From a virus, in the IMG/VR virus record IMGVR_UViG_3300032047_000003, positions 47,568 to 111,567 of that record: a DNA stretch of 64,000 nt; one strand, given 5' to 3'. Positions 6,812 to 64,000 of the stretch are shown here, piece by piece. The number at the start of each line of letters is the position of its first letter. Within the stretch, counting starts at the first letter, position 1. The translations under genes were made by a program, and so were the position numbers. The notes beneath the pieces are model-generated. The model searched no databases. It was given only the letters and a program-made list of their open reading frames with translations, and was not told the origin of the DNA.

Positions 6812-7417
6812 TTAACTCCTGGGTAAATATTCTGCATAATCTATATTAGAAACACTAAGCAAATTAGAAGAAGTATTATAATTCATAGTGATTATAATTA
6901 CTCTGTCTTTTATTTTAGCTTTAAAAAACATCCTTTCCTTAGGATCTGTAAATCCACTCAAAAGCCAATTTAAACTCGCTTTTGCAATTACCGAAACATT
7001 GACTGTGCTTTCAGTATACCTTGTAACTATAACACGAACATCCAAACCGTTAAGCGCGTCATCTGAAAATAATGCACTTTCTACGCTTGTTTTTATTGCA
7101 TCCATTGCAGAATTACTCAATTCTGCACCATGGAATTCTACCAGATTTGAAGCCGGTCTAAAAAAAGATGCAGCTGCTTCTCTGCTTAAGGTCAAAAGTC
7201 CTTCTTTTAAATTTTCGGTAATGCTGTTTCCCCATTCTACTTCCGATAAAGTCAATCTGTCAAAAATGCACTTTGCGACTATATCCATTGGATCTACTGT
7301 ATGTGAAATATCAATATGGCCCAAGATTGGAGTTTGATTATAACCTGAATCTTGTGAAAAAATTAAATCTCCATCAGCACCCATTTTTAAATCTCTAGTG
7401 TTCCCTTCAAGTCTCAT
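6812..7417 (-). CDS. Putative baseplate wedge / sheath initiator (gp25/gpW-like)
   Basis: DLKMGADGDL N-terminus, IKTSVESAL segment, and position directly upstream of the J-like gene. Confidence 0.55.
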   Translation of the reverse strand: MRLEGNTRDLKMGADGDLIFSQDSGYNQTPILGHIDISHTVDPMDIVAKCIFDRLTLSEVEWGNSITENLKEGLLTLSREAAASFFRPASNLVEFHGAELSNSAMDAIKTSVESALFSDDALNGLDVRVIVTRYTESTVNVSVIAKASLNWLLSGFTDPKERMFFKAKIKDRVIIITMNYNTSSNLLSVSNIDYAEYLPRS

Positions 7418-20326: not shown

Positions 20327-23300
20327 TTAATCTCCAAAAAACTTTCGTCGAATATAATTTTCACTTACAGGACCCCTTGTATCATTTATAGTAAAATGAC
20401 TTTGTCCTCCCATTGCTCCCACAATGTAAGATAGCTCTGATACTGATCTCATATTATGAGCCATTCCTCTCATTTGAAAACCACCTGGACTGTCTGCTAA
20501 AACTTGACCTATATTTATCTGCCTATTCATTATATCATTTTCTATCGAATTCTGCATATTTTGAACTGCTTCTTGACTCGGTCCCGCCTCAAAAGCGTTA
20601 CCTTCTCTGATAGCGGCTTTTAATTCTGGCGAAACCATTTCGCCTTCCATTGATAAAGGCACAGGGTCGTAACCACCATAACCCAAACCCGATCCAAGGG
20701 CCATAGTTGCAGCTAAACCAACCCCAAGACTTCCAATCCTTCCTCTGGAGCCAATTTCTACAGCATTCGTCCTCATAAGAGTACCAATAGTCCTCATCGC
20801 CTCTTCAAGGTCACTCATTGTGGTCTGCTCTATATTAGAACCCATTAGTTGCCCTTGAACATTGTTCCTTAGAAGCCCTTGAAACATTTCGTGATAAGCA
20901 CCGAGTTCTTGCTTGGAAGCAATACTTAAACGTCTTTCTGTTTTTGCATGCAAATAACCTGCTTCGCTTACATGAGGAAGCAAGCTTCTTAGATAAGGCA
21001 TTACATAGCTAAGAGCGTCTTCTGCAGAATTGGTTCCTCCCGGAGCAAACAGATTTATAACTTTTTGACCTTCCAGACTGTCCGCTAGTACGTCCACCCC
21101 ACCTCCCACTACATTTGTCTTACCAAATGTAACATCGAGATCTACTTCTCTAAAAAGATAGTCTTTAAAAAGTTTTTCGACAGTATCAAAAGCACTAACG
21201 TCTCCTTGTATTGCTGCATTAATATTTCTCGATATTGCTTCAGCCAAAGGTATATCAGTTGGAAGTTTTTTGGCTTTAATAACTGCGACTTCTTGTATTG
21301 CGGACAACAAGTTCAAAGCATCAGATGCAACCTTTCTTGTTGATTCATCAGCAGTATTAACGATTCCCAATCTTAAAGCGTCAAAACTAACATCAATTGG
21401 CCCTACGTTTTTACCCAGCTGCTCCTGTCTTGCCTTTACAGCGATTTCTTCAATAAGACTTCTATCAACATCCCCAATGGATCTTCTGAGATTGTCAATA
21501 CCTTCTCCTGCCATACTAAACAAAACCCTTGTTTTAGCTCTATAAAGAAGTTTTTGTTTTGCTATGTTTTCTAAATTAGCCTTACCCTTCTTCCCTAAAA
21601 GGTTTATTTCTTTTTCTCCTAGATTGCTTCTAGTAGGAAATAAAAGCTGGTAAATGTCCCCGTCAAAGTCACCTATCATACCACCCGCTAAAGATAAGTC
21701 CATTCTTTCCATCTTGCCACCATAGTGAACATCTACCATAAACTGAGGAATACTAATACGCCCACCGCCCACTCCAGGAGAAATTTCACCCATATGATTT
21801 CTCATTGCATCGAAAAAACTTCTTAGAACTTTATGCCTTTCCCCTTTGACTGTAACTCGATTTTTAATCTTTGTCATTCCCGCTTGGAGTTCTTGGTCGT
21901 AGTTGCCGCTAGCAATCGCTTGATCAATTCTTGTATTCTTTCCCTTGATATCGTCAATGCTTTGCTGTAGCTCAGCCATACTTTCTGGATCTGACATACT
22001 CAACAAGCTTTCTTCCATGCTTTCGATTTTTAACAAATTCCTTCCTTTCATATAATCCAGCACATGTTGATCACTAGGTGTTTGTATATTTTTCGGTCCT
22101 TGCTTTACAAAAGTCAGCAAATCTTTAAAACCTTTAACTTCATTACCTGTTAAATTATAAAAGTCCTGCGCAGCCCTTTTGCCGCCTTTAGTTTCAAGAA
22201 GCTTTTCAAAAATATTATCCTTCCCGCGCAATTCAGAAAGTTCTCTAAACGCTCCAACGAACTCTACGTGGGCGCTCCCCATCACGGGATGTCTCGATGC
22301 AATAGCAATATTTGCCAAACTTGGGCTAGATTGATCATATGAGCTTAGAAAGAAGTATTGAAGGGCATCTCTTGTTGCCCTTTTGCTATCTACCCTAGCT
22401 TTTTTAACTGCTTGCTTTGGATCAACTCCTTTTGATACTGCATTTTGCATTACATATTGAGCATTTACTCCAGATGAAAAACTAGACATTGCATTCAAAA
22501 AAGAAGTACTGTCTTGAAAAACAGCATGACCGAATGTTACTCTTTGAATTTTTCTCATTAAATATTTTTCTTCATTCGTATAATTGGTAGACCCTAAAGA
22601 CTTAGACAGATAACCTTTCATTTCGTCTTTACCGATAACAACATTGTTTAAAATATTCATCCCCTTTCTTTTTGCTGCATCTCTTTCCTTTTGACTTATT
22701 CGAGTGTTCTTGCTTTCCCTCATGGTAGAAACGTAAGTATCGTACGTTTGTTTATCTAAAGAAGAAGCAAAATCTGAAAATATGTCTACTCGTTTTTGAA
22801 GACCAACAGATTGGTTCATCCTGTAGTTGCCGCTTTTTGTTTTTTCGAAAACGTTTCCAGTTATTTCTATTTCTCCGCTTTCCCTGCCTATCTTCAAACC
22901 TAAAAACTCATCATGAAACCTACCAGTGTCTACAGTTCCACCTAACCCAAAAGTAGATCCAGACATTTTACCTCTTAAAGTCTTTCTAAAAGAGATACCA
23001 AAAAATTCACTCATTGAATCTTTAAAATCGTCCAGCCCTCTAAGGGCCATGCCTATCGCTTCAGTATTGCTTTGTGCTTTAGAAACTTCAACTAAACTTC
23101 TACTAAACCTACTTAGCGTTTTGATATAATCTGCGTCTATTTCTCTAAAAGCATCATCAGTAGGAATCAAAGTTCTTTCTCGTTCAAGAAGCTCCAAGAA
23201 GTTATCTCCACCTGGAAGATATATCTGTGAAGGAAAACCAGAAGAAGCCATTCTGTTTGTCAGCGTTTTGTCTCCTGACAAGTCTAATAAAAAACCACCT

Positions 23301-26300
23301 TTTTGTTTTGAAAGAAAACTTCTAATTTCTTTTTCTGATGAATTCTGAACAAACTCATCCACTGAAACTCTTGGAACGTCTTCTTCAAATAAACTTCTGC
23401 TTGCAAAAGACTCCATCGTCTTTGAATATTCCCTTGCCATTGCAATATCTTCACCAGTATTTTTCTTTCTCGAAAGAATAGAAAACATAAAGTTGGAAAC
23501 TTTTTCTTTGCTAACGCCCATTTCCTGAGTTAATTTATGAGACAAAAAATTATATAAACGCGGCTCAATTGATCCCATATTCTGTCCCAAGCTAGAACTT
23601 TGAGGACCGATTTCCAAATTAGTCAAACCTAATGCGACACCTTTCGAAACTTGTTTTTTTAATTTTTCTATGTACTTTTCGTAAGAACTGTTTTGGTCAA
23701 CTGGAAGGCCCATTTCTCTATGTGTGTCTCTTACTAAATTTTCAAAATCGCTTCCAGATACGCCTTCAACCGAATCGCCAAACATGCTTTTTGCAAAATA
23801 ACCAAAAGTCAATCCCTGCTTTTCTATTGCTGTATCGCTAATGTCGGTACCATATTTTTTAACTGCTAATTTTATTGCATTTTTTACCAAAGTATTATTT
23901 TGCTGAGATACGCTAAGATCGTTAAAAGCTTCTAGCGACATACCCCCTCTTTTGGTATCTGTCACTAAGCTTTCCAACTCTCTGCTAAAATCACTTTTAG
24001 CCACTCCCATTAAGATATCCAACGAGCTGCCAATTTGCTCTGCTAAGTTCATTGATGCTTTTTTCAACATAGCCGCATCAGTTGTAAAAACGCCGCTAAC
24101 ATTATTATTGGCTGAACCAACTCTTCCAATAATTGTATCGGTCAAACTAGAGCTTATTCCAGCTCTTTGTGTCAAAGTAGACCTCATGGTCTTTTCATTT
24201 GTTTTTTCAATTGTACCCTTGAACATAGTAGAAAAGATCTTCATAAAAGGATTATCTGTATCTCTGAAACCAGTAATCGAATACTTCCTAAGACCTCTTC
24301 CTTGACTGTCCAGTTCTTCCGTCAAGCCAAACTCTAAACCTTCAAGACCCGCATATCGCGGCAAGTATTGACGCCTTCCATCAATCATTCCAAGGTACAA
24401 TCCAAAATTATCTTCCTTTGCTCCAAACAATCTAAAGAAATCAGTTATATCAGAATATATTAACTGGTTGGATTCAATTCTAACTTTACCTTCTAGACCT
24501 TTTTTAGTAATTAAATCGCTAACCACCTTGGAAGTTTTTTGAGTTTCTCCTCCCTTCACAACGCTTCCAAAAAAATCTGTAACAAATTCGCCCTGAGCAT
24601 TTGTTCTCGTTCCAATATTGATATTTCGAATGCTTTCATCCCCCGTAGCAACTCTATGCTTTAGCTCTTCAAAAAGCACATTAGAGGCTCCCCCAAATTG
24701 TTGTGGATCGTAAACAGGTTTATTTATAGCTTTAGTAACTACTGTTTCTCCAAAATAATTTGCGGTACCTTCTCCTATTCCAAAAATATTTCTTCCCAAA
24801 TTAAAAACATCTTTATCTCCTTTTCTTGACCCAGCTAAGACGTCCATAACAGCAATGCCCTTTGGTCTTCGCATTTCTACGCCTCCTTCATAAAGATTGA
24901 TTGGCGGCGATTGATTTCCGGGATGCATATTGTATCCAGCCCTACGTTTGCCTCCTCCCTGTCTTAAAAACTCTTCTCTATTGTACATCTGCCTAAATCT
25001 TGCAGTAATCGGCTGAGTTGCTCTATTGGTTAAAAGCCCTCCAAACTGCCTTTGAGCAGTTTCTATAACTCCGTCAGCAAAATTGCCCCCATACATCTGT
25101 TGCAAGAAAGCGCTACGCAATCCAATATCTCCCATGCTTTGATTAAAATTACCAGAAGTAAATGGATTTGCTGAAAAGCCAAATAGATCCATTACTTGAG
25201 AAAGCATAGGTCTGAGATCCTTTTGATCTGCAGGCCCCAATCCTAAAGGGTTTATTATCTTCAAGCTATGTCCAGTTTGCCTATACTTTTGCTCTAGAAA
25301 CATGGAGGTAGTTTCAGAGCCCGTAGAGCCTGTCCGAGCGCCAAACCTATCGATAAACTCTAAAGATTGCTGCATATTTTGATTTATTAAACTTATATCT
25401 CTAGAAGAAACTTTATCAATTCCACCTCTTTTGTCGACATTCGATATAAACATTTCCGCCAACGCTTGCTCCGGAGTCATAAACTTTCCTTTGGAAATTT
25501 TATCTAAAATCATTTGTTTCCTACCTGCAACGTCTTTTATTTTTGCTACCTCATTTAAATCTGACGCCTTAGCGTAAACTCCAGAACCCGCATACATGGT
25601 ATTCATATTTCCATATCTAACTGGAAAAACTCCCTGACTGCTAAAATTACCCAAGCTCAAAGGTAAACTTTGAAGCTTTCTTCCACCTCTGTGTATTTCT
25701 ACATAAGGCACCACTCCCGTTGTACTGCCTACTCTTTCCGTTCTAGTGTTAAATTGAAACGAGACTCCCGATCCAGAAAAAGCACTTTCTAAAGCTTGAA
25801 AAACTTTTGTGTTTTTGTATTTATTTATTAAGCCACTGCCTGATTCTATTGAATTCAATCCAGGTTGTATTCCCGAAAGGTTAACCTTTTGAGGTTGAAC
25901 TAAAAGATCTGAAACGGGATGAAAAGGACTACTAGCGTATCCTGAAATTTTACTAATCCTATTGCTTCCAGAGGTTTCCGATTCAACAATTTCGTTAATT
26001 ATTTCTTTTAAAGAATCAGAGTTTTGAGTTAAATTTAATTCTCCTTGAAAAGACTGTTGAATTAAGTCTTCGACTACTTTCATCATAGTTCCAGTGCTAT
26101 CTGAAATATTTGGATCTGCTAATACGGTTTTTAAATTAGCCAAAAAAGCAGTTTGTTCTTCCGCTTGCCTGACTGCTAATTTTCCTAAAAACTCATCAAC
26201 ATTTTTGAATCTTTTAATCGCGTTTTCTTTTGCAGCGGCTTTCACTTGAGACCTGACCATCTGATACCGGTCGAAAGACTCACCTACTTTCGAATGCACA

Positions 26301-26491
26301 TCTCCCATCTGATTAGTAGGTAGATTTGCTAAAAAATTAGGATTATTAGACTTCATAGATTGAACGCTTTGATAGGACGCAAATCCTAATGGTCCTAAAC
26401 CAAAAGCAGTATTAAGTAAAGCATTTCCTTTTGCTTTTAAATCATCAACAGTGTCTGAATCTTTATTAAAAAACGGTAATTTAAAAGCCAT
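20327..26491 (-). CDS. Putative single-chain two-barrel (DPBB) virion RNA polymerase, ~2054 aa
   Basis: GDFDGD at 21656-21673, SRHP at 22286-22297, FRKTLRGK at 22967-22990 and KIFSTMFKG at 24215-24241, in the order expected for fused beta then beta-prime modules. Start moved to ATG 26491 behind GAGGTG. Confidence 0.7.
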   Translation of the reverse strand: MAFKLPFFNKDSDTVDDLKAKGNALLNTAFGLGPLGFASYQSVQSMKSNNPNFLANLPTNQMGDVHSKVGESFDRYQMVRSQVKAAAKENAIKRFKNVDEFLGKLAVRQAEEQTAFLANLKTVLADPNISDSTGTMMKVVEDLIQQSFQGELNLTQNSDSLKEIINEIVESETSGSNRISKISGYASSPFHPVSDLLVQPQKVNLSGIQPGLNSIESGSGLINKYKNTKVFQALESAFSGSGVSFQFNTRTERVGSTTGVVPYVEIHRGGRKLQSLPLSLGNFSSQGVFPVRYGNMNTMYAGSGVYAKASDLNEVAKIKDVAGRKQMILDKISKGKFMTPEQALAEMFISNVDKRGGIDKVSSRDISLINQNMQQSLEFIDRFGARTGSTGSETTSMFLEQKYRQTGHSLKIINPLGLGPADQKDLRPMLSQVMDLFGFSANPFTSGNFNQSMGDIGLRSAFLQQMYGGNFADGVIETAQRQFGGLLTNRATQPITARFRQMYNREEFLRQGGGKRRAGYNMHPGNQSPPINLYEGGVEMRRPKGIAVMDVLAGSRKGDKDVFNLGRNIFGIGEGTANYFGETVVTKAINKPVYDPQQFGGASNVLFEELKHRVATGDESIRNINIGTRTNAQGEFVTDFFGSVVKGGETQKTSKVVSDLITKKGLEGKVRIESNQLIYSDITDFFRLFGAKEDNFGLYLGMIDGRRQYLPRYAGLEGLEFGLTEELDSQGRGLRKYSITGFRDTDNPFMKIFSTMFKGTIEKTNEKTMRSTLTQRAGISSSLTDTIIGRVGSANNNVSGVFTTDAAMLKKASMNLAEQIGSSLDILMGVAKSDFSRELESLVTDTKRGGMSLEAFNDLSVSQQNNTLVKNAIKLAVKKYGTDISDTAIEKQGLTFGYFAKSMFGDSVEGVSGSDFENLVRDTHREMGLPVDQNSSYEKYIEKLKKQVSKGVALGLTNLEIGPQSSSLGQNMGSIEPRLYNFLSHKLTQEMGVSKEKVSNFMFSILSRKKNTGEDIAMAREYSKTMESFASRSLFEEDVPRVSVDEFVQNSSEKEIRSFLSKQKGGFLLDLSGDKTLTNRMASSGFPSQIYLPGGDNFLELLERERTLIPTDDAFREIDADYIKTLSRFSRSLVEVSKAQSNTEAIGMALRGLDDFKDSMSEFFGISFRKTLRGKMSGSTFGLGGTVDTGRFHDEFLGLKIGRESGEIEITGNVFEKTKSGNYRMNQSVGLQKRVDIFSDFASSLDKQTYDTYVSTMRESKNTRISQKERDAAKRKGMNILNNVVIGKDEMKGYLSKSLGSTNYTNEEKYLMRKIQRVTFGHAVFQDSTSFLNAMSSFSSGVNAQYVMQNAVSKGVDPKQAVKKARVDSKRATRDALQYFFLSSYDQSSPSLANIAIASRHPVMGSAHVEFVGAFRELSELRGKDNIFEKLLETKGGKRAAQDFYNLTGNEVKGFKDLLTFVKQGPKNIQTPSDQHVLDYMKGRNLLKIESMEESLLSMSDPESMAELQQSIDDIKGKNTRIDQAIASGNYDQELQAGMTKIKNRVTVKGERHKVLRSFFDAMRNHMGEISPGVGGGRISIPQFMVDVHYGGKMERMDLSLAGGMIGDFDGDIYQLLFPTRSNLGEKEINLLGKKGKANLENIAKQKLLYRAKTRVLFSMAGEGIDNLRRSIGDVDRSLIEEIAVKARQEQLGKNVGPIDVSFDALRLGIVNTADESTRKVASDALNLLSAIQEVAVIKAKKLPTDIPLAEAISRNINAAIQGDVSAFDTVEKLFKDYLFREVDLDVTFGKTNVVGGGVDVLADSLEGQKVINLFAPGGTNSAEDALSYVMPYLRSLLPHVSEAGYLHAKTERRLSIASKQELGAYHEMFQGLLRNNVQGQLMGSNIEQTTMSDLEEAMRTIGTLMRTNAVEIGSRGRIGSLGVGLAATMALGSGLGYGGYDPVPLSMEGEMVSPELKAAIREGNAFEAGPSQEAVQNMQNSIENDIMNRQINIGQVLADSPGGFQMRGMAHNMRSVSELSYIVGAMGGQSHFTINDTRGPVSENYIRRKFFGD

Positions 26492-29400
26492 ATTCACCTC
26501 TAATGTATTGCTCTATAATAGCACTTCTGTCATCATTCATGTAGAAAACTCCAGAAGTATTTGTTCCAAATCTATTTACATTCATTTGCCCTGTAAAAGG
26601 AACGTTGTCCAATTCAGATCTACCTGCAGTTCTTAAAACAGAACCTAAGTTTAAGCCTCTTCCCATTTCTTCTACAATTGGGTTTTCTACGCCTTCCAAA
26701 TAGGGCATTCGGGCCTGAAGCCTTAATCTTTGATTATACATGTCTAAGTCTCCTAAATCGATTCCAGTTCTATCTGCATATCTTATCTTTACGTCATCCA
26801 TTTCTACATCTTCGTGCCATCCCACCCAGTCTGTGCCTGGCATAGGTTTTTCGTAAAAATATTCTTCCAAGCTGGCCAACTTCATTTTTAAATACCTTTC
26901 ATCAATTTGATTTTTATAGCCTGGGTTTAAAGTTGGATCGCCAGCATCCAATCTACTCCAAAGACCTATGTAAAGGTCCCTGTTGTCTTCCGGAACCATT
27001 TCAAGAATTCTCTCTCTATCTTTTTCTGAAGCCATAGAAAAAGCATCAAAAAAAGCTTTTTCTCCTTCTGGCAATGCTTCGTAAATAGCCATAGCATGAG
27101 CCTGAGGATTAACCCCAAAAGTAGTCTTAGAAGCCCTGTAAAGAGCCTGCCTTTTTAAATTACTATCTCCCATTGCTTCAGCTCTATCTGCAATTTTCAT
27201 CTGTTGAATGAACTGCAATTTGTCAAAATATTCATTAGTTTCATTTGCTTTTCTTCTAAAACCTGGGACGTCGCTATAGCCCATTATATGAGCAGCAGAA
27301 TAGAAGGAAGGTCTAAACCAATCACGAATAGGCTTATCCCAAAAAGAATTAACCGTACCATAAAGTCTTTCTTGCTCATAAGACTCTATAGCAGAAATCC
27401 CCATGTAAGAAGGATCTGTTAATAGCTTTTGCGAAGGTCTAAATCCCATTGGAACCAAATATTCTGCAGGGGCTAGCCCTGTTTTTAAAACACTCCTAGC
27501 AGTTCTACCTATAGCCCTTGTTGTATCGCCCAGAAAGGGGATGTCATATGCATCTGGATCCATTTCCCTAATACTTTTGTCAGACATTTTTTCATTAAGC
27601 ATTTTGTCCGTTTTATCCATGTAGGATTCAACAGCTCTATTCATTTTGCCCGAAGCTCTTTGCTTGTACATGTTTTCTCTAAGCATAATAAACTCTCTAG
27701 AGTGAGGAGCTATATCTGCTAGAATGGAATATTTAAAAATATCTGGGTAGTTTTCAGGACTTATGTTTTTTAATTCAGGATGAATAGCAGCATAACCTGC
27801 TCCAGGAAGTCTTACCTCGCCATACTTTACATTTCTATATGGATCTCCATATTTAAACCTATCAGGCATCCAAGTAGGCATTGAATTGACAATTGGATTA
27901 TAGTGTTGAATCATAGACCTTTCTCTTGGCAGAAAACGTCTAATCGGTTCAGTAGTAAAGAACCCGCCGCCTAGTTCTTTTTTCCAAAAGTCTTCTTTTG
28001 CCGAAAACATTTTACCCGCACTTTCTAAAACAGGTCTTTGTATTCCAAAAGTTTCTTCTCCCGTAAGAGCTTTTGTATACATGTTTTTAGCCCAACCGGT
28101 AAGACCTTCAAGCTCTCTAAACTGATACTGCAATTCTCCCGCTACAAAACTGCTGGAAAACGGAGACATTGGCTTGCCAGGGCTAATACCCCCCAGCTTT
28201 CCGCTAGGCCCTTTGTATTCGTTTCTGTGAGCAAACTCAACGTCTCCTTGTTCGTTAACCCTCATAAACTCATTTACATGCATCAACTTTGGAGGTTTAA
28301 TTAAACGGCCTACCGTGGCTGACAAAAGCTTTCCAATTACCGGCACATTTTCAAAAGCTCCCCCAGTTATAGGATAGGGCCTGTCGTAGTAGTTTTCTCT
28401 TTCCAGTTGATAAGTAAAGTTTTCTAACAAAAAGTTGTGTATCGGAGATCGATTGACTTTATACCTTGCTTTATCTGTCGCCTGAGACATGTAAGCTACA
28501 TAGTCATGTGGTCTGAAATACGAAACACCCTTACCTTCATAAGAACTTCCGCCGCCCTCCCACCAGCGCCCTTTTCTCACCTCTACTAGTTGCCTTCCAG
28601 AGTATATTTCATTAAGCTCTGTAGGACCCTTCATAGACCCAAGAAGGCCACCAGTTACAAACTGTTGAGCTAGCAGACCTCCAAGAAATAAACTTCCGTA
28701 TCTGCCAAATTTAGTTTTATAGTTTAATTTCTTCGCAGCCTCAGTAAAGCCTTCACCTTCTTTTGTTGCTCCAAAAAACGAATGTATTATAGAAGCGTTA
28801 GCAGTTTCAATTTTCTTTCTAATCCCGCCAAACATTGAAGTGTCATCTATATACCTTGCGTCAATTTCTTCAAGCTTTCTTAAAAAAGACTGATTCATCG
28901 GATTGTTTAACCCTGATTCCATTTCTTTTTTAACTGCAAGTCCTTGCTCGAATCTTAACGACAGCTCTTCTTGAATCGCTGCAAGTCCTTTTTCACCGAA
29001 TTCCCTTTTGCTGACGTCCATAAGTAACGAAGACAATTTCATTCTTGAGAAATTAGATTCAGATTCCAATAACTCTCTAAGTAAAATATTTTCGTCAACC
29101 GTCATTGCGTCGATTAACGTTCTAGGCCCTTTAAAAATTCTATCTGCTTTTTCGGTTAAAAACCCTTCGCCCTTTATTCCTGCTTGCGTAAATTCTTTTG
29201 CTACTGGAAACTCTGTAAAAAACATCGATCTTACAGATTGCTTTTGGTAGTATCGTAAACCTCTACTAACTAAAGCATTTTCGTCAAATGCAATTTCAGG
29301 AGAAATGCCTAGTTTTATTTTTTGCGATTCATCTAACTTTTCATATATTCTGCTAGAGATAGGTTTGCCACTGGCTCCACTGGCTAGAGCCAAAGAAAGA

Positions 29401-34169: not shown

Positions 34170-34179
34170 TGCAGTCTCC

Positions 34180-34230
34180 AAAAAGAATATCCTTCTCCTG
34201 GATATTATAACATATGTCAAGAGAAGGATA
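34180..34230 (-). terminator. Intrinsic terminator/attenuator after the tail tube gene
   Basis: Minus-strand arms TATCCTTCTCTTG and CAGGAGAAGGATA (13 bp with one G-U pair), followed by TTCTTTTT. Confidence 0.65.
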
Positions 34231-34259
34231 AAATTGTTTTTTAAACTAGAAAGATACTA

Positions 34260-60451: not shown

Positions 60452-60480
60452 ATTATATCATATAATAACATCAATCTCAA
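60452..60480 (-). promoter_or_regulatory. Sigma70/SigA-type promoter with extended -10 driving the structural operon
   Basis: Minus strand TTGAGA, 17 nt spacer ending in TGA, then TATAAT, 20 nt upstream of the ATG at 60431. Confidence 0.8.
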
Positions 60481-60807
60481 TTATTGGCTATTTGAGGTGC
60501 GCGGGAAATCGCCTATATAGAAAAAATATATTTTTAAAAAAATTTTGCTATAAGCAATTTTTAAAAAGTTGAAAAATATTTTCAAAATCAAAATTAAAAG
60601 CATGGGGAAGGAAAATGCGAAACTTAAAAGCCAAAAGGAAAGTGAAATATATGTTGGATATAGGGTAGGTATTATATATGTTTTATTTTGCATAGTGGTA
60701 GTTGCGTGCCTACCGGGGTTTACCTGAGTCTTTTTTATTTTGCTTTAGTGGAGCGTGGCGTGCCAGGGGAAACTCGAACAGTCACTAACTTAGTCGTGGA
60801 GGTAAAC

Positions 60808-61158
60808 ATGACAAAACTTGAAAAGCTACGTAATCAGTCCTTGTACTGGTTGCGAAAGGTTTGGTGGAGAGTGACGATGCCGGTGCGTCGTGTGCTTGAC
60901 ACTAGATCTTGTCTGATCACAATTAATTCTATCTACGATGGAATTGATTGGGATCGGGAACCTACTCGCGAAGAGTATTGGTACATTGCATTGGAAATTG
61001 ATGGGATCTGCGATTCCATGATACTCCAATGGGATGTTGACTTTACTCAAAACGAGAAGGTATGCAAGATCTATGAATTCCTCGGAATTCACGCAAATCT
61101 ACATGATGGCTTTACTTGGGCAGAAGCACTTCATGTGTTTGAAACTGCATACGAGTAA
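60808..61158 (+). CDS. Hypothetical early protein, 116 aa, Trp-rich
   Basis: Start moved from 60688 to ATG 60808 behind GGAGGT (MTKLEKLRNQ...). Confidence 0.75.
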   Translation: MTKLEKLRNQSLYWLRKVWWRVTMPVRRVLDTRSCLITINSIYDGIDWDREPTREEYWYIALEIDGICDSMILQWDVDFTQNEKVCKIYEFLGIHANLHDGFTWAEALHVFETAYE

Positions 61159-61175
61159 AGTCAAGTGACAGTAGG

Positions 61176-61206
61176 AAAGGCACACTTCGGTGTGTCTTTT
61201 TTATTT
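61176..61206 (+). terminator. Intrinsic terminator with a cUUCGg loop
   Basis: AAAGGCACAC-TTCG-GTGTGTCTTTTTTATTT. Confidence 0.85.
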
Positions 61207-61276
61207 ATTGCTTTAGTGGAGGTGGCGCGCCAGGGGAAACTCGAACAGTCTATCAACACAGTCATGGAGGTTAATC

Positions 61277-61534
61277 ATGGCAAAATTCATTGAGACGTTA
61301 ATAGTAGTATGGCAACAGGCACCCTTACTCTACCTAGTAGTAGTATGGGCAGTAGCAGCAGCAATGTTGTGTGATCGCGTTAGCACAAAGAGATTCATCG
61401 CTGGTAATACAGCAATGGTGCTCGGAGTGCTAGCCTATTGGGGGCCTATTGTAGATCCCCAGTTCGCTTGGATTTACATTGCTCTATGCGGTGCACCTTG
61501 TTTGGTAGCAGCCGTAATAGCTTGTAAGGAATAA
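61277..61534 (+). CDS. Small membrane protein, about 3 TM segments
   Basis: 85 aa, GGAGGT RBS, three hydrophobic stretches. Confidence 0.75.
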   Translation: MAKFIETLIVVWQQAPLLYLVVVWAVAAAMLCDRVSTKRFIAGNTAMVLGVLAYWGPIVDPQFAWIYIALCGAPCLVAAVIACKE

Positions 61535-61553
61535 ACTACTATTGTCGTATGAA

Positions 61554-61592
61554 AGGTGCTCGGAGTGTATACTCTGAGCATCTTTTTTATTT
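61554..61592 (+). terminator. Intrinsic terminator
   Basis: AGGTGCTCGGAGT-GTAT-ACTCTGAGCATCT followed by TTTTTATTT. Confidence 0.85.
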
Positions 61593-61603
61593 AACACTTT
61601 AGT

Positions 61604-61730
61604 GGATATCTATGCTTCAAGAATAAGCAATGGATTTCCATGCATGTAATTGTGTTTTTAAGACAGCTTATCTCTATAAGCTCGTGGACTTAGACTACAA
61701 ACGCCTGCAGAAATGCAGGTCTTTTTTCTT
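61604..61730 (+). ncRNA. Candidate small non-coding RNA occupying one cassette
   Basis: Starts at the motif GG and ends at a GAAA-loop terminator. No RBS seen; internal hairpins ATGG-ATTT-CCAT and AGCTTAT-CTCT-ATAAGCT. Confidence 0.4.
61703..61730 (+). terminator. Intrinsic terminator with a GAAA loop
   Basis: GCCTGCA-GAAA-TGCAGGT then CTTTTTTCTT. Confidence 0.8.
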
Positions 61731-61819
61731 CCTTACTTCAATAGTTCTTTTTTTTATTTTGTTTCAATGGAAAGTGGGCTGCCAGAAAGACCGCATCAAC
61801 TTAGTCATGGAGGTAAATC

Positions 61820-62146
61820 ATGGCAAAACTAAATAAAGAAAGAAGAGAGCGTTATGCTCTTTTGTCTAATATAATCACAGTGCTAGCGATAGCATGGTGG
61901 TTCATTGCAACTCTTGGACTTTCGACCTGTGTGGGTTGGACACTGTGCTACATTGTAGGAGTGTTCTTCCTGACAGCTGCGTCAGAAAGTGCTGTGCCTA
62001 TTGGCATAGATGGAGTGTTGGGAAGATACTTGTCTATATTCTTTTGGTACGGTATCATTACCGGCTGGATATGGGTAGCAGTATTTAACTTTGACAATAT
62101 CTGTAAAGATACAATGAGTTGGATAAAAGATGTATTAATGATCTAA
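61820..62146 (+). CDS. Small membrane protein, about 3 TM segments
   Basis: 108 aa, GGAGGT RBS, basic N-terminus then hydrophobic helices. Confidence 0.75.
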   Translation: MAKLNKERRERYALLSNIITVLAIAWWFIATLGLSTCVGWTLCYIVGVFFLTAASESAVPIGIDGVLGRYLSIFFWYGIITGWIWVAVFNFDNICKDTMSWIKDVLMI

Positions 62147-62170
62147 CTCTCTCTTCCTTCGAAAAGATTT

Positions 62171-62215
62171 CCCTATGGATTGCTATTGTAGTTCATAGGG
62201 TCTTTTTTGTTTTTT
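62171..62215 (+). terminator. Intrinsic terminator
   Basis: CCCTATGGATTGC-TATT-GTAGTTCATAGGG then TCTTTTTTGTTTTTT. Confidence 0.8.
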
Positions 62216-62270
62216 ATTTTAGTGGAGTTAGCGCAGTGCAAGACTCCAAAACAATAAACCAGGTAAAACA

Positions 62271-62546
62271 ATGAACCTTGTTAAAGAAATCTATACACAC
62301 ATTGATGTGTTCTACAAATTCAACCTTTCTTGTCTGGCCCTTATGTGGCCAGCAATATGGCTGATACAGGAACTAGCGCTCGATATGGCGATGGAAGCTG
62401 TGCTTTTCGGAGCGGGTATCGCTGGAGGCGCCAGTGTGCTGATCTTTGTAGGACTGTCAATAATGTGTGTTGTTGACACTTATAGAAGCTACAGAGCCCA
62501 AAAGAGTTTTGAAGAAGAATACCCATCCCTCAAGGATTGGTGTTAA
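62271..62546 (+). CDS. Small membrane protein, about 2 TM segments
   Basis: 91 aa, AGGT RBS, hydrophobic AVLFGAGIAGGASVLIFVGLSIMCVV. Confidence 0.72.
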   Translation: MNLVKEIYTHIDVFYKFNLSCLALMWPAIWLIQELALDMAMEAVLFGAGIAGGASVLIFVGLSIMCVVDTYRSYRAQKSFEEEYPSLKDWC

Positions 62547-62576
62547 GCTTTCGGTTTGTAGCTTGTAGAAAGTACT

Positions 62577-62609
62577 GAGATCACGATTAATTCGTGATCT
62601 TTTTATTTT
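62577..62609 (+). terminator. Intrinsic terminator
   Basis: GAGATCACGA-TTAAT-TCGTGATCTT then TTTATTTT. Confidence 0.8.
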
Positions 62610-62650
62610 CCTTTAACGGTAATTCTGCCAAAAAACATTCGAGGTGACAC

Positions 62651-62950
62651 ATGGCTAATTGTCTATGTGGGTCCTGGAGAAGAACTTCTTTTGGTTCGGT
62701 TTGTCGTCAGTGCGGCAAACACAAACAGAAGAAGAGGACCAAAAAGTCTTCTCAAGGAAAGTCTTTTGATGCAATTCTGCATCAAATACAGTCCGAGTAC
62801 AATAGTACTGATGGTGATCCAAAAGAGCACTGTCAGGTACTGTCGTACGAAATCGTTAACGGTGAATACGTCGTAACGGCAATTCAATACGATAGCGAGG
62901 CTGCTAGAAACGGGAGATTCCCCAAGTCAATTACGACTTGGAAGTACTAA
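62651..62950 (+). CDS. Small Zn-ribbon-like basic protein
   Basis: 99 aa, GAGGTG RBS, CLC...CRQC followed by KHKQKKRTKK. Confidence 0.7.
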   Translation: MANCLCGSWRRTSFGSVCRQCGKHKQKKRTKKSSQGKSFDAILHQIQSEYNSTDGDPKEHCQVLSYEIVNGEYVVTAIQYDSEAARNGRFPKSITTWKY

Positions 62951-62962
62951 AAAAGTGTAATT

Positions 62963-62995
62963 CCTAGACGAAAGTCTAGGTTTCTTTTTTATTTT
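62963..62995 (+). terminator. Intrinsic terminator with a GAAA loop
   Basis: CCTAGAC-GAAA-GTCTAGG then TTTCTTTTTTATTTT. Confidence 0.85.
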
Positions 62996-63074
62996 CTCTT
63001 CTTTTTTCTTAGATGGCGGTAACTGCCTGTGGGAAACCCGAAGTGTACAATCAATCCAGCTGTGGAGGTAAATC

Positions 63075-63467
63075 ATGGCAAAACTAACTCAATTACTTAT
63101 GGCAGTCATAGCGATTGCTTTATTATCATGTCTCGTTCGTGAAAGCGCAGAAGCAAACGAAAACTTTTGGTGGGATATCTACGTCTGTGAAGAAGAAGCT
63201 TCATCTTGGGAGGGACCAATTCCTAATGCAGAATACCGATGTACAAAGAAAGACGCTTTGTACAATTGGAGTCACTGCTATATCGAATTTTCGGAGAACA
63301 AAACATGGTTTGTTGGCGATCTTTTAGATCGTCGTTACTTTGATCGGTATCACGAATTTGAAACAACAAAAACTTATTTCGCAATTACGCAAAATAAGAA
63401 TAGTCTTCATAATTGGTATCGTCATATCTTAGTAAAAGATGCTGTAAAGGCGTGTCGTCATAAGTAA
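63075..63467 (+). CDS. Exported protein or lipoprotein
   Basis: 130 aa, GGAGGT RBS. Signal-like MAKLTQLLMAVIAIALLSC (possible lipobox) or AEA cleavage site; four further Cys residues. Confidence 0.7.
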   Translation: MAKLTQLLMAVIAIALLSCLVRESAEANENFWWDIYVCEEEASSWEGPIPNAEYRCTKKDALYNWSHCYIEFSENKTWFVGDLLDRRYFDRYHEFETTKTYFAITQNKNSLHNWYRHILVKDAVKACRHK

Positions 63468-63480
63468 TAGTAACAACGGA

Positions 63481-63527
63481 AAGGTGCAGAGAGCTCGCAG
63501 GGCTGCATCTTAATCTTTTTTTTATTT
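63481..63527 (+). terminator. Probable intrinsic terminator
   Basis: Arms AAGGTGCAG and CTGCATCTT around a 13 nt loop, then AATCTTTTTTTTATTT. Confidence 0.65.
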
Positions 63528-63621
63528 CCCTTTAATGGTACCTTGGCCTTTGGGACAGGTGTGCAAGTGTCGAATGATCGGGGCGAGGGCTGTGGTGGCC
63601 TTTAACGCATGGGGGTATATC

Positions 63622-64000
63622 ATGTCTGAAGAAACCAAAAAACAAGAAACAAGAAAGATCACAACCGATGATGCGAAGGCATTGCGATTGGTATTGAACC
63701 GATTCTTAGTGTTACAAGAAATTCCATCCAATTGGCAATTTGTTGAAACTCATAAGGAAGGGGAAACAACCTGGGTTATATCTGAAACGTTTATGACAAC
63801 CTTTGAGGACTTGATCGCAGATGCCAAAAAAGCATTGAAATCAATCAAGGAACAAGGTAAAGTCAAAGGTAAGCAGCTTGCAAGAGTTGTCCTTGCTAAG
63901 TGTCCAAAGAGCACAAAGCGAAACGGGAAGCCATTCGGTATGTGTTTCATTGTGACCAAAGAACATCTTACGTTACCACGTTTTGATGGATTTCGACAAA
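63622..64000 (+). CDS. Partial hypothetical protein (MSEETKKQETRKITTDDAKALRLVLNRF...)
   Basis: Not in the ORF track because it is truncated. GGGGGT RBS, ATG 63622, open to the window end. Confidence 0.75.
   Translation, partial: MSEETKKQETRKITTDDAKALRLVLNRFLVLQEIPSNWQFVETHKEGETTWVISETFMTTFEDLIADAKKALKSIKEQGKVKGKQLARVVLAKCPKSTKRNGKPFGMCFIVTKEHLTLPRFDGFRQ

What the first reader, a model, noticed from the sequence alone, without database searches (positions are those of the whole stretch)
60681..63621. Array of single-gene cassettes, each headed by a conserved non-sigma motif: candidate promoters of the virion RNA polymerase
Seen: nine units with a TTTTATTT-containing tract followed by a YTTTARYGG-like motif (starts 60690, 60743, 61211, 61597, 61762, 62217, 62611, 63008, 63530). 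Most lie directly after the previous unit's terminator hairpin, and I see no TTGACA/TATAAT pairs there. Because each gene is closed by a terminator, each likely needs its own promoter. Inference: the motif is a phage-specific promoter with transcription starting at GG. The upstream hairpin might also be part of the promoter, as for coliphage N4 virion RNA polymerase.
Basis: partly seen in the sequence, partly recalled or inferred. Interest (0 to 1): 0.85.

Follow-up and report, generated by a model that had tools for sequence, protein, structure and literature searches.

The report
Phage-specific early promoter cassette array
An uncultured marine phage heads each of its first small genes, and the gene of a probable second RNA polymerase, with one 24-base T-rich signal unlike a bacterial promoter; it is most likely the start signal for a polymerase the phage injects, which can be tested in vitro.

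Summary
Seven exact and two degenerate copies of a T-rich tract plus YTTYARYGG lie at the stated coordinates. All are on the + strand, and most sit just after an intrinsic-terminator hairpin and ahead of a gene with a Shine-Dalgarno site.

A metagenome contig of the same phage (L105) runs 8.9 kb past the window end and adds three copies, making 12. Leave-one-out PWM scores exceed 19 bits for 8 of the 12. Nothing else in the 120.5 kb I could read scores above 12.1 bits. Similarity among copies is confined to -22..+1.

No sigma-70 hexamer pair accompanies any copy. The divergent structural operon, by contrast, starts at a near-consensus TTGAGA-N17-TGnTATAAT.

One copy (u11) precedes a 1345-aa ORFan with an invariant RxP...DxDGD signature. 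This is a probable second, non-virion two-barrel RNA polymerase.

My best reading (confidence about 0.5) is a composite stop/start element whose promoter is read by the injected 2056-aa GDFDGD protein, a cascade like that of Thermus phage P23-45.

The N4-type hairpin idea is not supported. The RNAP folds could not be confirmed here, and no 5' ends or relatives' DNA were available.

This scan has noted similar cassette arrays in other phages.

The parts
60681..60698 (+). u1: degenerate copy (GTTTTATTTTGCATAGTGG). First unit of the rightward arm, no hairpin upstream and no ORF; followed about 45 nt later by a T-tract.
   Evidence: (leave-one-out -1.4 bits because of a 1-nt indel)
60729..60751 (+). 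u2: TTTTTTATTTTG-CTTTAGTGG. GG at 60750, 58 nt before the ATG at 60808.
   Evidence: (leave-one-out 24.5)
61195..61219 (+). u3: motif copy directly after the terminator hairpin at 61170-61205. GG at 61218, ATG at 61277.
   Evidence: (25.7)
61581..61605 (+). u4: motif copy after the hairpin at 61551-61586. It heads an ORF-less unit of about 127 nt that ends at the terminator 61703-61727.
   Evidence: 12.8; RNA fold z -3.4
61745..61770 (+). u5: TTTTTTTTATTTTG-TTTCAATGG, 42 nt from the nearest hairpin. GG at 61769, ATG at 61820.
   Evidence: (24.7)
62202..62225 (+). u6: TTTTTTGTTTTTTA-TTTTAGTGG after the hairpin at 62171-62200. GG at 62224, ATG at 62271.
   Evidence: (21.6)
62598..62619 (+). u7: TTTTTATTTTC-CTTTAACGG after the hairpin at 62577-62601. 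GG at 62618, ATG at 62651.
   Evidence: (19.6). Homology to a related strain begins exactly here.
62985..63016 (+). u8: degenerate copy (CTTAGATGG) with a 9-nt insertion in the T-tract that a related strain lacks. GG at 63015, ATG at 63075.
   Evidence: 9 nt left out at 62993; 5.2
63515..63538 (+). u9: TTTTTTTTATTTCC-CTTTAATGG after the hairpin at about 63483-63509. GG at 63537, ATG at 63623.
   Evidence: (24.3)
60808..63467 (+). Six single-gene cassettes: ORFs 60808-61158, 61277-61534, 61820-62146, 62271-62546, 62651-62950 and 63075-63467. They encode small ORFans of 85-130 aa, and most start sites have a GGAGG-type Shine-Dalgarno sequence.
   Evidence: (no Pfam or PHROG family)
63623..64000 (+). 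Seventh cassette gene, cut by the window end. It continues to L105:1459 and is followed by units u10 (L105:1511-1534), u11 (L105:2041-2063) and u12 (L105:6918-6937).
60452..60480 (-). Host-type promoter TTGAGA-N17-TGaTATAAT, the best sigma-70 match in 120 kb. It heads the divergent leftward (structural) operon and serves as the internal contrast.
20327..26497 (-). Gene of a 2056-aa protein in the virion block with an invariant GDFDGD (aa 1607-1612): the candidate injected two-barrel RNA polymerase.
   Evidence: No Pfam, PHROG or PDB sequence hit. My fold attempt was inconclusive.

Best explanation
Each unit is a composite stop/start element. A hairpin plus T-tract ends the previous transcript. 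A roughly 24-bp signal, a T-run from -21 to -9 with a single A near -12/-13 followed by C-T-T-Y-A-R-T-G-G from -7 to +2, starts the next one at or next to the invariant GG.

The signal is not a host sigma-70 promoter. It is most likely read by a phage RNA polymerase that is present before any phage protein is made, namely the 2056-aa GDFDGD protein encoded among the virion and ejection genes and injected with the DNA.

That enzyme would transcribe about ten self-contained pre-early cassettes (small ORFans and at least one small RNA). From copy u11 it would also transcribe the gene of a 1345-aa ADFDGD protein, a second non-virion polymerase that takes over later classes. Structural genes start from a host-type promoter.

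Shown: the motif, its confinement to one region and strand, the terminators, the absence of sigma-70 hexamers, the two invariant DFDGD signatures, and the gene order.

Inferred: that the motif is a promoter, that transcription starts at GG, and which enzyme reads it.
For: There are 12 copies, all on the + strand and all in the first 9 kb of the rightward arm, with none elsewhere in 120.5 kb.

The core is enriched 27-fold over shuffled T-rich intergenic DNA.

Similarity among copies is confined to -22..+1, at 65-75% pairwise against 26% in the flanks. It is therefore a selected site, not a recent duplication.

Eight copies lie 33-86 nt upstream of a start codon with a Shine-Dalgarno site.

u1 opens the arm with nothing upstream to terminate. 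u1, u5, u11 and u12 keep the T-run without an adjacent hairpin.

No sigma-70-like pair lies in any of these spacers, while the divergent operon has an 11/12 match with an extended -10.

No sigma-70 r2, T7-type RNAP or beta-prime Pfam domain was found in the 111-kb record.

GDFDGD is invariant in the virion-block protein family.

u11 lies upstream of the 1345-aa protein. Its RxP...DxDGD is invariant across 11 members down to 18% identity. Its only hhalign hit in E. coli beta-prime is the catalytic barrel: aa 629-764 against beta-prime 370-494, E 0.012.

In a strain about 90% identical, found in an RNA library, the three covered cores are unchanged. Homology to this phage begins exactly at the T-tract, and the 9-nt insertion in u8 is absent there, which restores the usual spacing.

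Precedent: in P23-45 the virion RNAP reads AT-rich promoters at one genome end, including that of the non-virion RNAP gene (PMC10770324).
Against: No transcript 5' ends were available. The only RNA data were assembled contigs that run across cassettes and may be DNA carry-over.

The RNAP fold of neither large protein was confirmed here. pLDDT was 48 and 32, Foldseek gave nothing meaningful, and profile searches of PDB sequences were empty. The hhalign E of 0.012 is only suggestive.

TATTTT at -13..-8 fits the TAnnnT form of a -10 box, so host RNAP with a missing or injected factor is not excluded.

About 34 kb of the genome (CheckV completeness 73%) is unread. It could hold more copies, a sigma factor or another polymerase.

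No relatives' early regions could be fetched, so motif-enzyme co-variation is untested.

In phi14:2, no common motif was found upstream of the transcripts made by its virion RNAP (bioRxiv 10.1101/2020.03.07.982082). A defined promoter is therefore not a given for such enzymes.
Confidence: 0.5

Rival explanations
1. The motif is the promoter of the 1345-aa non-virion polymerase (a middle class). The virion enzyme or host RNAP first expresses that gene from another signal, for example the GACTACAAG boxes in its 720-nt leader.
For: The 1345-aa protein has the better beta-prime-like signature. A second motif, GACTACAAG, occurs twice between u11 and the gene, and again after u12, so tandem promoters of two classes are possible.
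Against: The motif array starts at the very head of the rightward arm, upstream of the polymerase gene. The cassettes are small ORFans of the take-over type. In P23-45 the AT-rich, end-proximal class belongs to the virion enzyme. This reading also needs an unidentified first promoter for the gene.
Confidence: 0.17
2. Host RNA polymerase reads the element as a -10-only promoter: TATTTT at -13..-8, a T-rich UP-like tract, and a start at GG. It may be helped by an injected or early phage factor.
For: TATTT lies at -13/-12 in 8 of 12 units, with the key A and T positions of a -10 hexamer. The host clearly uses canonical sigma-70 promoters and Shine-Dalgarno sites. Intrinsic terminators of the bacterial type close every cassette.
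Against: There is no -35 and no TGn extension. The position of the A shifts (-9 in u6, -11 in u3). The best conserved part is the YTTYARYGG core at -7..+2, where sigma-70 promoters are not conserved. The phage's own host-type promoter looks entirely different. No sigma-like gene was found in 111 kb.
Confidence: 0.15
3. The element is not a promoter. It is an extended termination or processing signal, or only a recombination junction (PeSL-like homology patch) that lets strains swap cassettes.
For: Homology between this phage and a strain about 90% identical starts exactly at the T-tract of u7 and u8, with different cassettes upstream. P23-45 has a conserved 26-nt motif at the termination sites of its virion RNAP. 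T-runs terminate several two-barrel RNAPs (my own knowledge).
Against: u1 has nothing upstream to terminate. Terminators elsewhere in the genome lack the YTTYARYGG core. The element keeps a fixed orientation and sits 33-86 nt before start codons. Every cassette is terminator-closed, so a start signal must exist in these roughly 100-nt spacers, and nothing else in them is conserved. A junction role is compatible with being a promoter, as it is for PeSLs.
Confidence: 0.1
4. It is an N4-type promoter: the upstream hairpin is extruded and is part of what the virion polymerase recognises.
For: Hairpins lie upstream of most units.
Against: Four of 12 units lack an adjacent hairpin. Stems are 7-16 bp with 4-nt loops, ending about 20 nt or more before the GG, at variable distance. 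There is no inverted repeat centred near -11, and -17..-5 is a T-run. N4 promoters are a GC-rich heptamer at -11 flanked by short inverted repeats with a 3-nt loop (PMC4496689). The candidate enzyme is of the two-barrel type, not T7/N4-like (one search found no T7-type domain; the N4 family itself is not covered by that model).
Confidence: 0.03

Closest known systems
Pre-early AT-rich promoters of Thermus phage P23-45, read by the virion two-barrel RNAP gp96, with the non-virion RNAP gene gp64 among the pre-early genes (PMC10770324)
   Same: A strongly conserved A/T-rich motif sits at the head of one genome arm. It drives small first-entering genes and the gene of a second phage polymerase. 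There are two DxDGD-type polymerase candidates, one in the virion module and one early, and late genes are left to a host-type promoter.
   Different: Here the virion candidate is a free-standing 2056-aa gene between two other giant genes of a marine phage, not an N-terminal fusion to a tape measure. There is no detectable sequence similarity to gp96 or gp64. Cassettes end in ordinary hairpin/T-tract terminators rather than a special 26-nt motif. Nothing here has been tested at the bench.
PeSL (promoter-early stem-loop) composite terminator/promoter cassettes of T4-type phages (PMC2839356, PMC4122927)
   Same: A stem-loop terminator is followed directly by an early promoter, repeated between small ORFan genes in a plastic region. 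Related strains differ by whole cassettes, with break points at the element.
   Different: PeSL promoters are sigma-70 type (TTGACA-N17-TATAAT variants) read by host RNAP. Here no -35/-10 pair exists, and the conserved part is a T-run plus YTTYARYGG.
Early promoters P1-P3 of coliphage N4, read by its injected virion RNAP (PMC4496689)
   Same: The concept is the same: an injected polymerase reads a few phage-specific signals at the first-entering genes, and a second phage polymerase is encoded among them.
   Different: N4 promoters are extruded hairpins (5-7 bp stem, 3-nt loop, GC-rich centre at -11) read by a T7-like single-subunit enzyme. Here there is no such hairpin, and the candidate enzyme has a DFDGD motif.
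Virion RNAP gp66 of crAss-like phage phi14:2 (bioRxiv 10.1101/2020.03.07.982082; Nature 2021)
   Same: A giant virion-packaged protein whose only recognisable mark is a DFDxD motif, held to transcribe early genes.
   Different: For phi14:2, no common motif was found upstream of early transcripts. Here a sharp 12-copy motif exists. This phage is not crAss-like: its TerL is nearest to jumbo myovirus types, and its genes use Shine-Dalgarno sites.

Membership tests
Phage-specific (non-sigma-70) early promoter class | One conserved sequence repeated upstream of co-oriented genes and far above chance | tested here: met
   12 copies. Leave-one-out PWM exceeds 19 bits for 8 of them. The core occurs 10 times against 0.37 expected in shuffled intergenic DNA..
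Phage-specific (non-sigma-70) early promoter class | Confined to one temporal or positional gene class | tested here: met
   All copies lie in the first 9 kb of the rightward arm. No site above 12.1 bits occurs in the other 111 kb read. About 34 kb of the genome is unread.
Phage-specific (non-sigma-70) early promoter class | Primary transcript 5' ends at a fixed distance from the motif | not testable with these tools
   Only assembled contigs of one RNA library were available.
Phage-specific (non-sigma-70) early promoter class | Conserved, or co-varying with the polymerase, in related phages | tested here: inconclusive
   A strain about 90% identical keeps 3 of 3 covered cores, but this is weak: about 14% of the time that would happen by chance.
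Promoters of an injected two-barrel virion RNAP (P23-45 type) | The phage encodes a two-barrel RNAP in its virion module | tested here: inconclusive
   GDFDGD is invariant in 5 family members, and the gene lies between ejection-type giant genes. There were no sequence hits, and my AF2 model was too poor (pLDDT 48). An earlier agent's note (e1-6054924) reports an RNAP fold; I did not reproduce it.
Promoters of an injected two-barrel virion RNAP (P23-45 type) | The motif class includes the promoter of a second (non-virion) RNAP gene | tested here: met
   u11 lies 721 nt upstream of the 1345-aa ORF with invariant RxP...DxDGD. The RNAP identity of that ORF is itself only suggested (hhalign E 0.012).
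Promoters of an injected two-barrel virion RNAP (P23-45 type) | Transcription is rifampicin-resistant and independent of new protein synthesis | not testable with these tools
   The phage is uncultured and its host is unknown.
PeSL cassettes of T4-type phages | A terminator stem-loop immediately followed by a promoter, between small genes | tested here: met
PeSL cassettes of T4-type phages | The promoter is a sigma-70 -35/-10 pair | tested here: not met
   No pair of 10/12 or better lies in any spacer.
PeSL cassettes of T4-type phages | The elements are break points of cassette exchange between related phages | tested here: met
   Two contigs of a related strain diverge exactly upstream of the T-tracts of u7 and u8. 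This rests on one relative only.
N4-type hairpin promoters | A short inverted repeat (5-7 bp stem, 3-nt loop) centred near -11, within -17..-5 | tested here: not met
   -17..-5 is a T-run. The hairpins present are terminators with 7-16 bp stems and 4-nt loops further upstream, and they are absent from 4 units.
Bacterial sigma-70 promoters | TTGACA-like and TATAAT-like hexamers 16-18 bp apart, or an extended TGnTATAAT | tested here: not met
   Only a TAnnnT-like TATTTT at -13..-8 is present.

The most novel reading that the evidence does not exclude
A lineage of uncultured marine phages of about 154 kb runs a two-polymerase cascade with enzymes that no sequence profile recognises. A free-standing injected two-barrel RNAP (2054 aa) reads a defined double-stranded signal of about 24 bp (T-run plus CTTYARTGG, starting at GG). 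From it the enzyme expresses swappable pre-early cassettes and a 1345-aa non-virion RNAP. That would provide a sharply defined promoter for a new family of virion RNAPs, ready for in vitro work.
Probability: 0.4. Interest if true: 0.72.

Novelty: new variant of a known kind. Interest (0 to 1): 0.6.

Why it matters
What injected two-barrel RNA polymerases recognise is still poorly known. For the crAss-like phage phi14:2, no common motif was found upstream of early transcripts. For P23-45, the promoter assignment rests on ChIP and TSS maps.

Here a 12-copy motif of about 24 bases sits beside two candidate polymerases that no database profile detects. That gives a directly testable enzyme-promoter pair: run-off transcription on short PCR templates, with point mutants at -3A and at the GG. 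It also suggests a second example of a virion-to-non-virion polymerase cascade, in an unrelated marine phage.

The terminator/promoter boxes also appear to be the joints at which strains swap early genes. This extends the PeSL principle beyond host-type promoters.

Short, self-contained, orthogonal promoter/terminator pairs of this kind are also of practical use if the enzyme proves active.

Tried and rejected
Searches for relatives' DNA
The contigs of the vRNAP homologues (P0002-5) and nvRNAP homologues (P0006-14) could therefore not be fetched.
- The search for related loci found no relatives: the 1420-aa neighbour, A2 and A3 in IMG/VR, A2 in metagenome contigs, and A3 in GTDB genomes.
- Motif scans of IMG/VR gave only single-copy chance hits. 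A PWM over 269 fetched loci gave at most 2 hits outside L105, and the two-hit loci I inspected (L191, L243) did not look like relatives.
It did, however, yield L105.

Attempts to confirm the polymerases
- AF2 of the nvRNAP (aa 101-1300) and the virion protein (aa 801-2000) on shallow alignments gave pLDDT 32 and 48. Foldseek hits (ryanodine receptors, exportins) are meaningless.
- PDB sequence and profile searches, Pfam, PHROGs and tblastn against phages were all empty for both proteins.
- hhalign of the two families against each other found nothing. A2 against beta-prime also found nothing.
- The ESM Atlas gave only a sub-threshold RdRP-family lead, score 0.84.

RNA and read data
- Rfam had no hit in the array or in L105.
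- The shared leader of u2, u3, u5 and u8 shows no convincing conserved RNA structure.
- The RNA-library contigs (X24) span terminators, so they say nothing about starts. Uncovered parts in the laid runs are not evidence of anything.

Ideas ruled out
- The idea that the phage is crAss-like was rejected: its TerL is nearest to jumbo myovirus types, and Shine-Dalgarno use is widespread.
- The 3991-aa protein is an M23-bearing ejection or hub-type protein, with no sign of an N4-like RNAP.

Full report
**What the window is**

The window is the last 64 kb of a 111,567-bp linear IMG/VR virus record that CheckV rates 73% complete. It comes from marine metagenomes.

The record is not closed. It begins inside a dUTPase gene, and an identical copy of its 2054-aa protein sits on a 154-kb contig elsewhere.

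Genes from window 2 to 60431 run leftward. They include a large terminase, a major-head-like protein and three giant genes:
- a 1412-aa protein;
- a 2056-aa protein with GDFDGD;
- a 3991-aa protein with an M23 peptidase, related to phage internal and ejection proteins.

The terminase is nearest, at 25-29% identity, to those of large myoviruses such as Moorella MTATph1, Acinetobacter ME3 and Bacillus 0305phi8-36. SD-like tetramers precede 78 of 107 genes. The phage is therefore not crAss-like, and its host uses ordinary ribosome-binding sites.

All nine stated positions carry the element. The composite pattern gives 6 hits against 0.19 expected, all on the + strand between 60734 and 63538. A looser version finds only these sites in the whole record.

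By chance, one of my metagenome scans returned L105, a 10,261-bp contig of the same phage. L105:1-1340 equals window 62661-64000 except for its first base. It extends the sequence 8.9 kb beyond the window and adds three more units.

With 12 units:
- The position counts read T (at least 80%) from -21 to -9, with one A near -12/-13. Position -8 is variable. Then come C8 T11 T11 Y11 A11 R12 T11 G12 G12 (out of 12) from -7 to +2.
- Leave-one-out PWM scores are above 19 bits for 8 units. u4 scores 12.8 and u12 14.0. The two indel-bearing copies are low (u8 5.2, u1 -1.4).
- The best other site on either strand of 120.5 kb scores 12.1 bits.
- The core 9-mer occurs 10 times in 2,676 nt of these spacers. 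Dinucleotide shuffles of the same T-rich DNA give 0.37.
- Pairwise identity among units is 65-75% from -22 to +1 and 26% (background) on both sides. The element is therefore a selected site of about 24 bp, not a trace of recent duplication. Only u2, u3, u5 and u8 also share a leader and the GGAGGTAAATCATGGCAAAA start context.

**Anatomy of a unit**

Terminator-like hairpins are four-fold enriched in the region. They abut u3, u4, u6, u7, u9 and u10.

Eight units lie 33-86 nt upstream of a start codon with an SD site. u11 and u12 have long leaders of 721 and 288 nt.

u1 and u4 head ORF-less units. The u4 unit is a 127-nt RNA with a fold z-score of -3.4 that ends in its own terminator.

The cassette proteins are ORFans of 85-165 aa.

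**Not a host promoter, and not an N4-type hairpin**

No sigma-70-like pair of 10/12 or better lies in any of the spacers. The leftward operon, only about 230 bp from u1, starts at TTGAGA-N17-TGaTATAAT. That is the best correctly placed match in the whole sequence.

No sigma-70 r2, T7-type or beta-prime Pfam domain was found in the 111-kb record.

The upstream hairpins are ordinary terminators:
- stems of 7-16 bp with 4-nt loops;
- ending 20 nt or more before the GG;
- absent next to u1, u5, u11 and u12.

The -17..-5 stretch is a T-run without dyad symmetry. N4 promoters, by contrast, have a GC-rich centre at -11 flanked by short inverted repeats with a 3-nt loop (PMC4496689).

**A second polymerase candidate just beyond the window**

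After u11 and a 720-nt ORF-free leader comes a 1345-aa ORF carrying VADFDGD. Its family is tiny, with five clusters at 50% identity among 1.84 billion proteins.

R690-x-P692 and D727-x-D729-G730-D731 are invariant down to 18% identity. The spacing from RxP to the first Asp is 37 residues. From memory, the corresponding spacing in bacterial beta-prime is about 35.

hhalign of the family against E. coli beta-prime returns one hit only, the catalytic barrel: aa 629-764 against beta-prime 370-494. E improved from 0.1 to 0.012 when more divergent members were added. This is suggestive, not proof.

My AlphaFold models of this protein and of the virion protein were too poor to use (pLDDT 32 and 48). 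All sequence and profile searches against PDB, Pfam, PHROGs and known phages were empty.

An earlier agent of this scan reported an RNAP fold for the 2054-aa protein (e1-6054924). I could not reproduce that with my segment and shallow alignment, so I treat it as a lead.

**Mechanism proposed**

Every cassette is closed by a terminator, so a start signal must lie in each spacer of about 100 nt. The motif is the only conserved thing there.

The gene of the second polymerase is itself behind a copy of the motif, and the array opens the arm. The simplest order of events is as follows:
1. An enzyme present at time zero reads the motif.
2. That enzyme makes the cassettes and the 1345-aa polymerase.
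3. The 1345-aa polymerase takes over.
4. The structural operon uses the host-type promoter.

The enzyme at time zero is either host RNAP or an injected protein. Because the motif is so unlike the phage's own host-type promoter, I favour the 2056-aa GDFDGD protein, which is encoded between ejection-type giant genes.

This mirrors Thermus phage P23-45. There, the virion RNAP reads a strongly conserved AT-rich motif near one genome end, including the promoter of the non-virion RNAP gene, and the latter reads a different, GC-richer motif (PMC10770324).

A possible counterpart of that second class exists here. GACTACAAG occurs four times, plus one variant, only in + strand non-coding DNA downstream of u11 and u12.

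I put about 0.8 on the element being a transcription start signal and about 0.5 on the full reading with the injected enzyme.

Rivals:
- The 1345-aa enzyme reads the motif (0.17).
- Host RNAP uses TATTTT at -13..-8 as a -10-only promoter, possibly with a factor (0.15).
- The element is a non-promoter termination, processing or recombination signal (0.1).

**Cassette exchange**

In an RNA library, two contigs of a strain about 90% identical align from 62601 and from 62982, that is, from the T-tracts of u7 and u8. Unrelated sequence lies upstream of both, although it also ends in a hairpin and T-run.

That strain lacks the 9-nt insertion that spoils u8 here. All three covered cores are unchanged.

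This is the behaviour described for PeSL terminator/promoter boxes of T4-type phages (PMC2839356, PMC4122927). Those carry sigma-70 promoters. Because the data are assembled contigs, they say nothing about transcript ends or expression.

**Comparison and novelty**

The architecture is PeSL-like. The logic is like that of P23-45 and N4. The sequence of the signal and both candidate enzymes are new.

For the crAss-like phage phi14:2, no common motif was found upstream of the transcripts made by its virion RNAP. A sharp motif next to an unrecognised virion RNAP candidate is therefore useful.

This scan has already noted similar promoter/terminator cassette arrays in other phages, mostly crAss-like. 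The kind is thus recurrent, and this is a new variant in a different lineage.

**Limits**

There are no 5' ends, no bench data and no DNA from relatives. About 34 kb of the genome is unread, and the host is unknown.

Noticed in passing
L105:2783-6820 (+), i.e. 2.8-6.8 kb into a contig that overlaps window 62661-64000: A 1345-aa ORFan with invariant RxP...ADFDGD. Its only hhalign hit in E. coli beta-prime is the catalytic barrel (E 0.012). The family has only 5 clusters at 50% identity in 1.84 billion proteins. It is a candidate non-virion two-barrel RNA polymerase that no profile database recognises.
   Followed up: partly
L105:2378, 2391, 7047, 9945 (GACTACAAG) and 10035 (GACTCCAAG), + strand: A second short motif found only in non-coding DNA downstream of units u11 and u12 and at the end of L105. 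It occurs nowhere else in 120 kb. It may be a second promoter class (compare the GC-richer nvRNAP promoters of P23-45) or an RNA motif. At 7047 it forms the 3' arm of an 8-bp hairpin.
   Followed up: partly
window 61604-61730 (+): Unit u4 has no ORF. It would give a 127-nt RNA ending at its own terminator, with predicted fold z-score -3.4. This is a candidate early small RNA with no Rfam match.
   Followed up: partly
L105:2064-2782 (+): A 720-nt ORF-free leader lies between u11 and the polymerase gene. It holds GCTGTA-type direct repeats (2219-2317), a 12-nt exact repeat TACTGTAGCGTA (2270, 2286) and several hairpins. u11 itself sits in the loop of an 8-bp inverted repeat (2024-2031 / 2063-2070). 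These may be regulatory sites, or an origin.
   Followed up: no
window 60566-60668: Contigs of three independent DNA assemblies (X2, X3, X6) stop at about 60566-60573 and resume at about 60654-60668, in the AT-rich spacer between the host-type promoter and u1. The cause could be low complexity, or a physical genome end next to the early array. This was not resolved.
   Followed up: no
window 60452-60480 (-): A near-consensus extended sigma-70 promoter (TTGAGA-N17-TGaTATAAT) heads the whole leftward structural block. It is the only strong, correctly placed host-type promoter found in 120 kb.
   Followed up: yes
window 62993-63002: The T-tract of u8 has a 9-nt insertion relative to a related strain, which reads TTTTTTATTTTTTTCTTAGATGG. 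The copy in this genome may be weakened.
   Followed up: partly
window 34170-34259 (-): The spacer contains TTGACA and TATAAT only 5 nt apart, inside an 8-bp inverted repeat (TCCTTCTC...GAGAAGGA). This is not a usable sigma-70 promoter; it is more likely a hairpin signal.
   Followed up: no
genome C1:1-370 (47.5 kb before the window): The record starts inside a dUTPase gene, followed by a ThyX-like gene. The contig is a fragment, and about 34 kb between L105 and this point is missing.
   Followed up: partly
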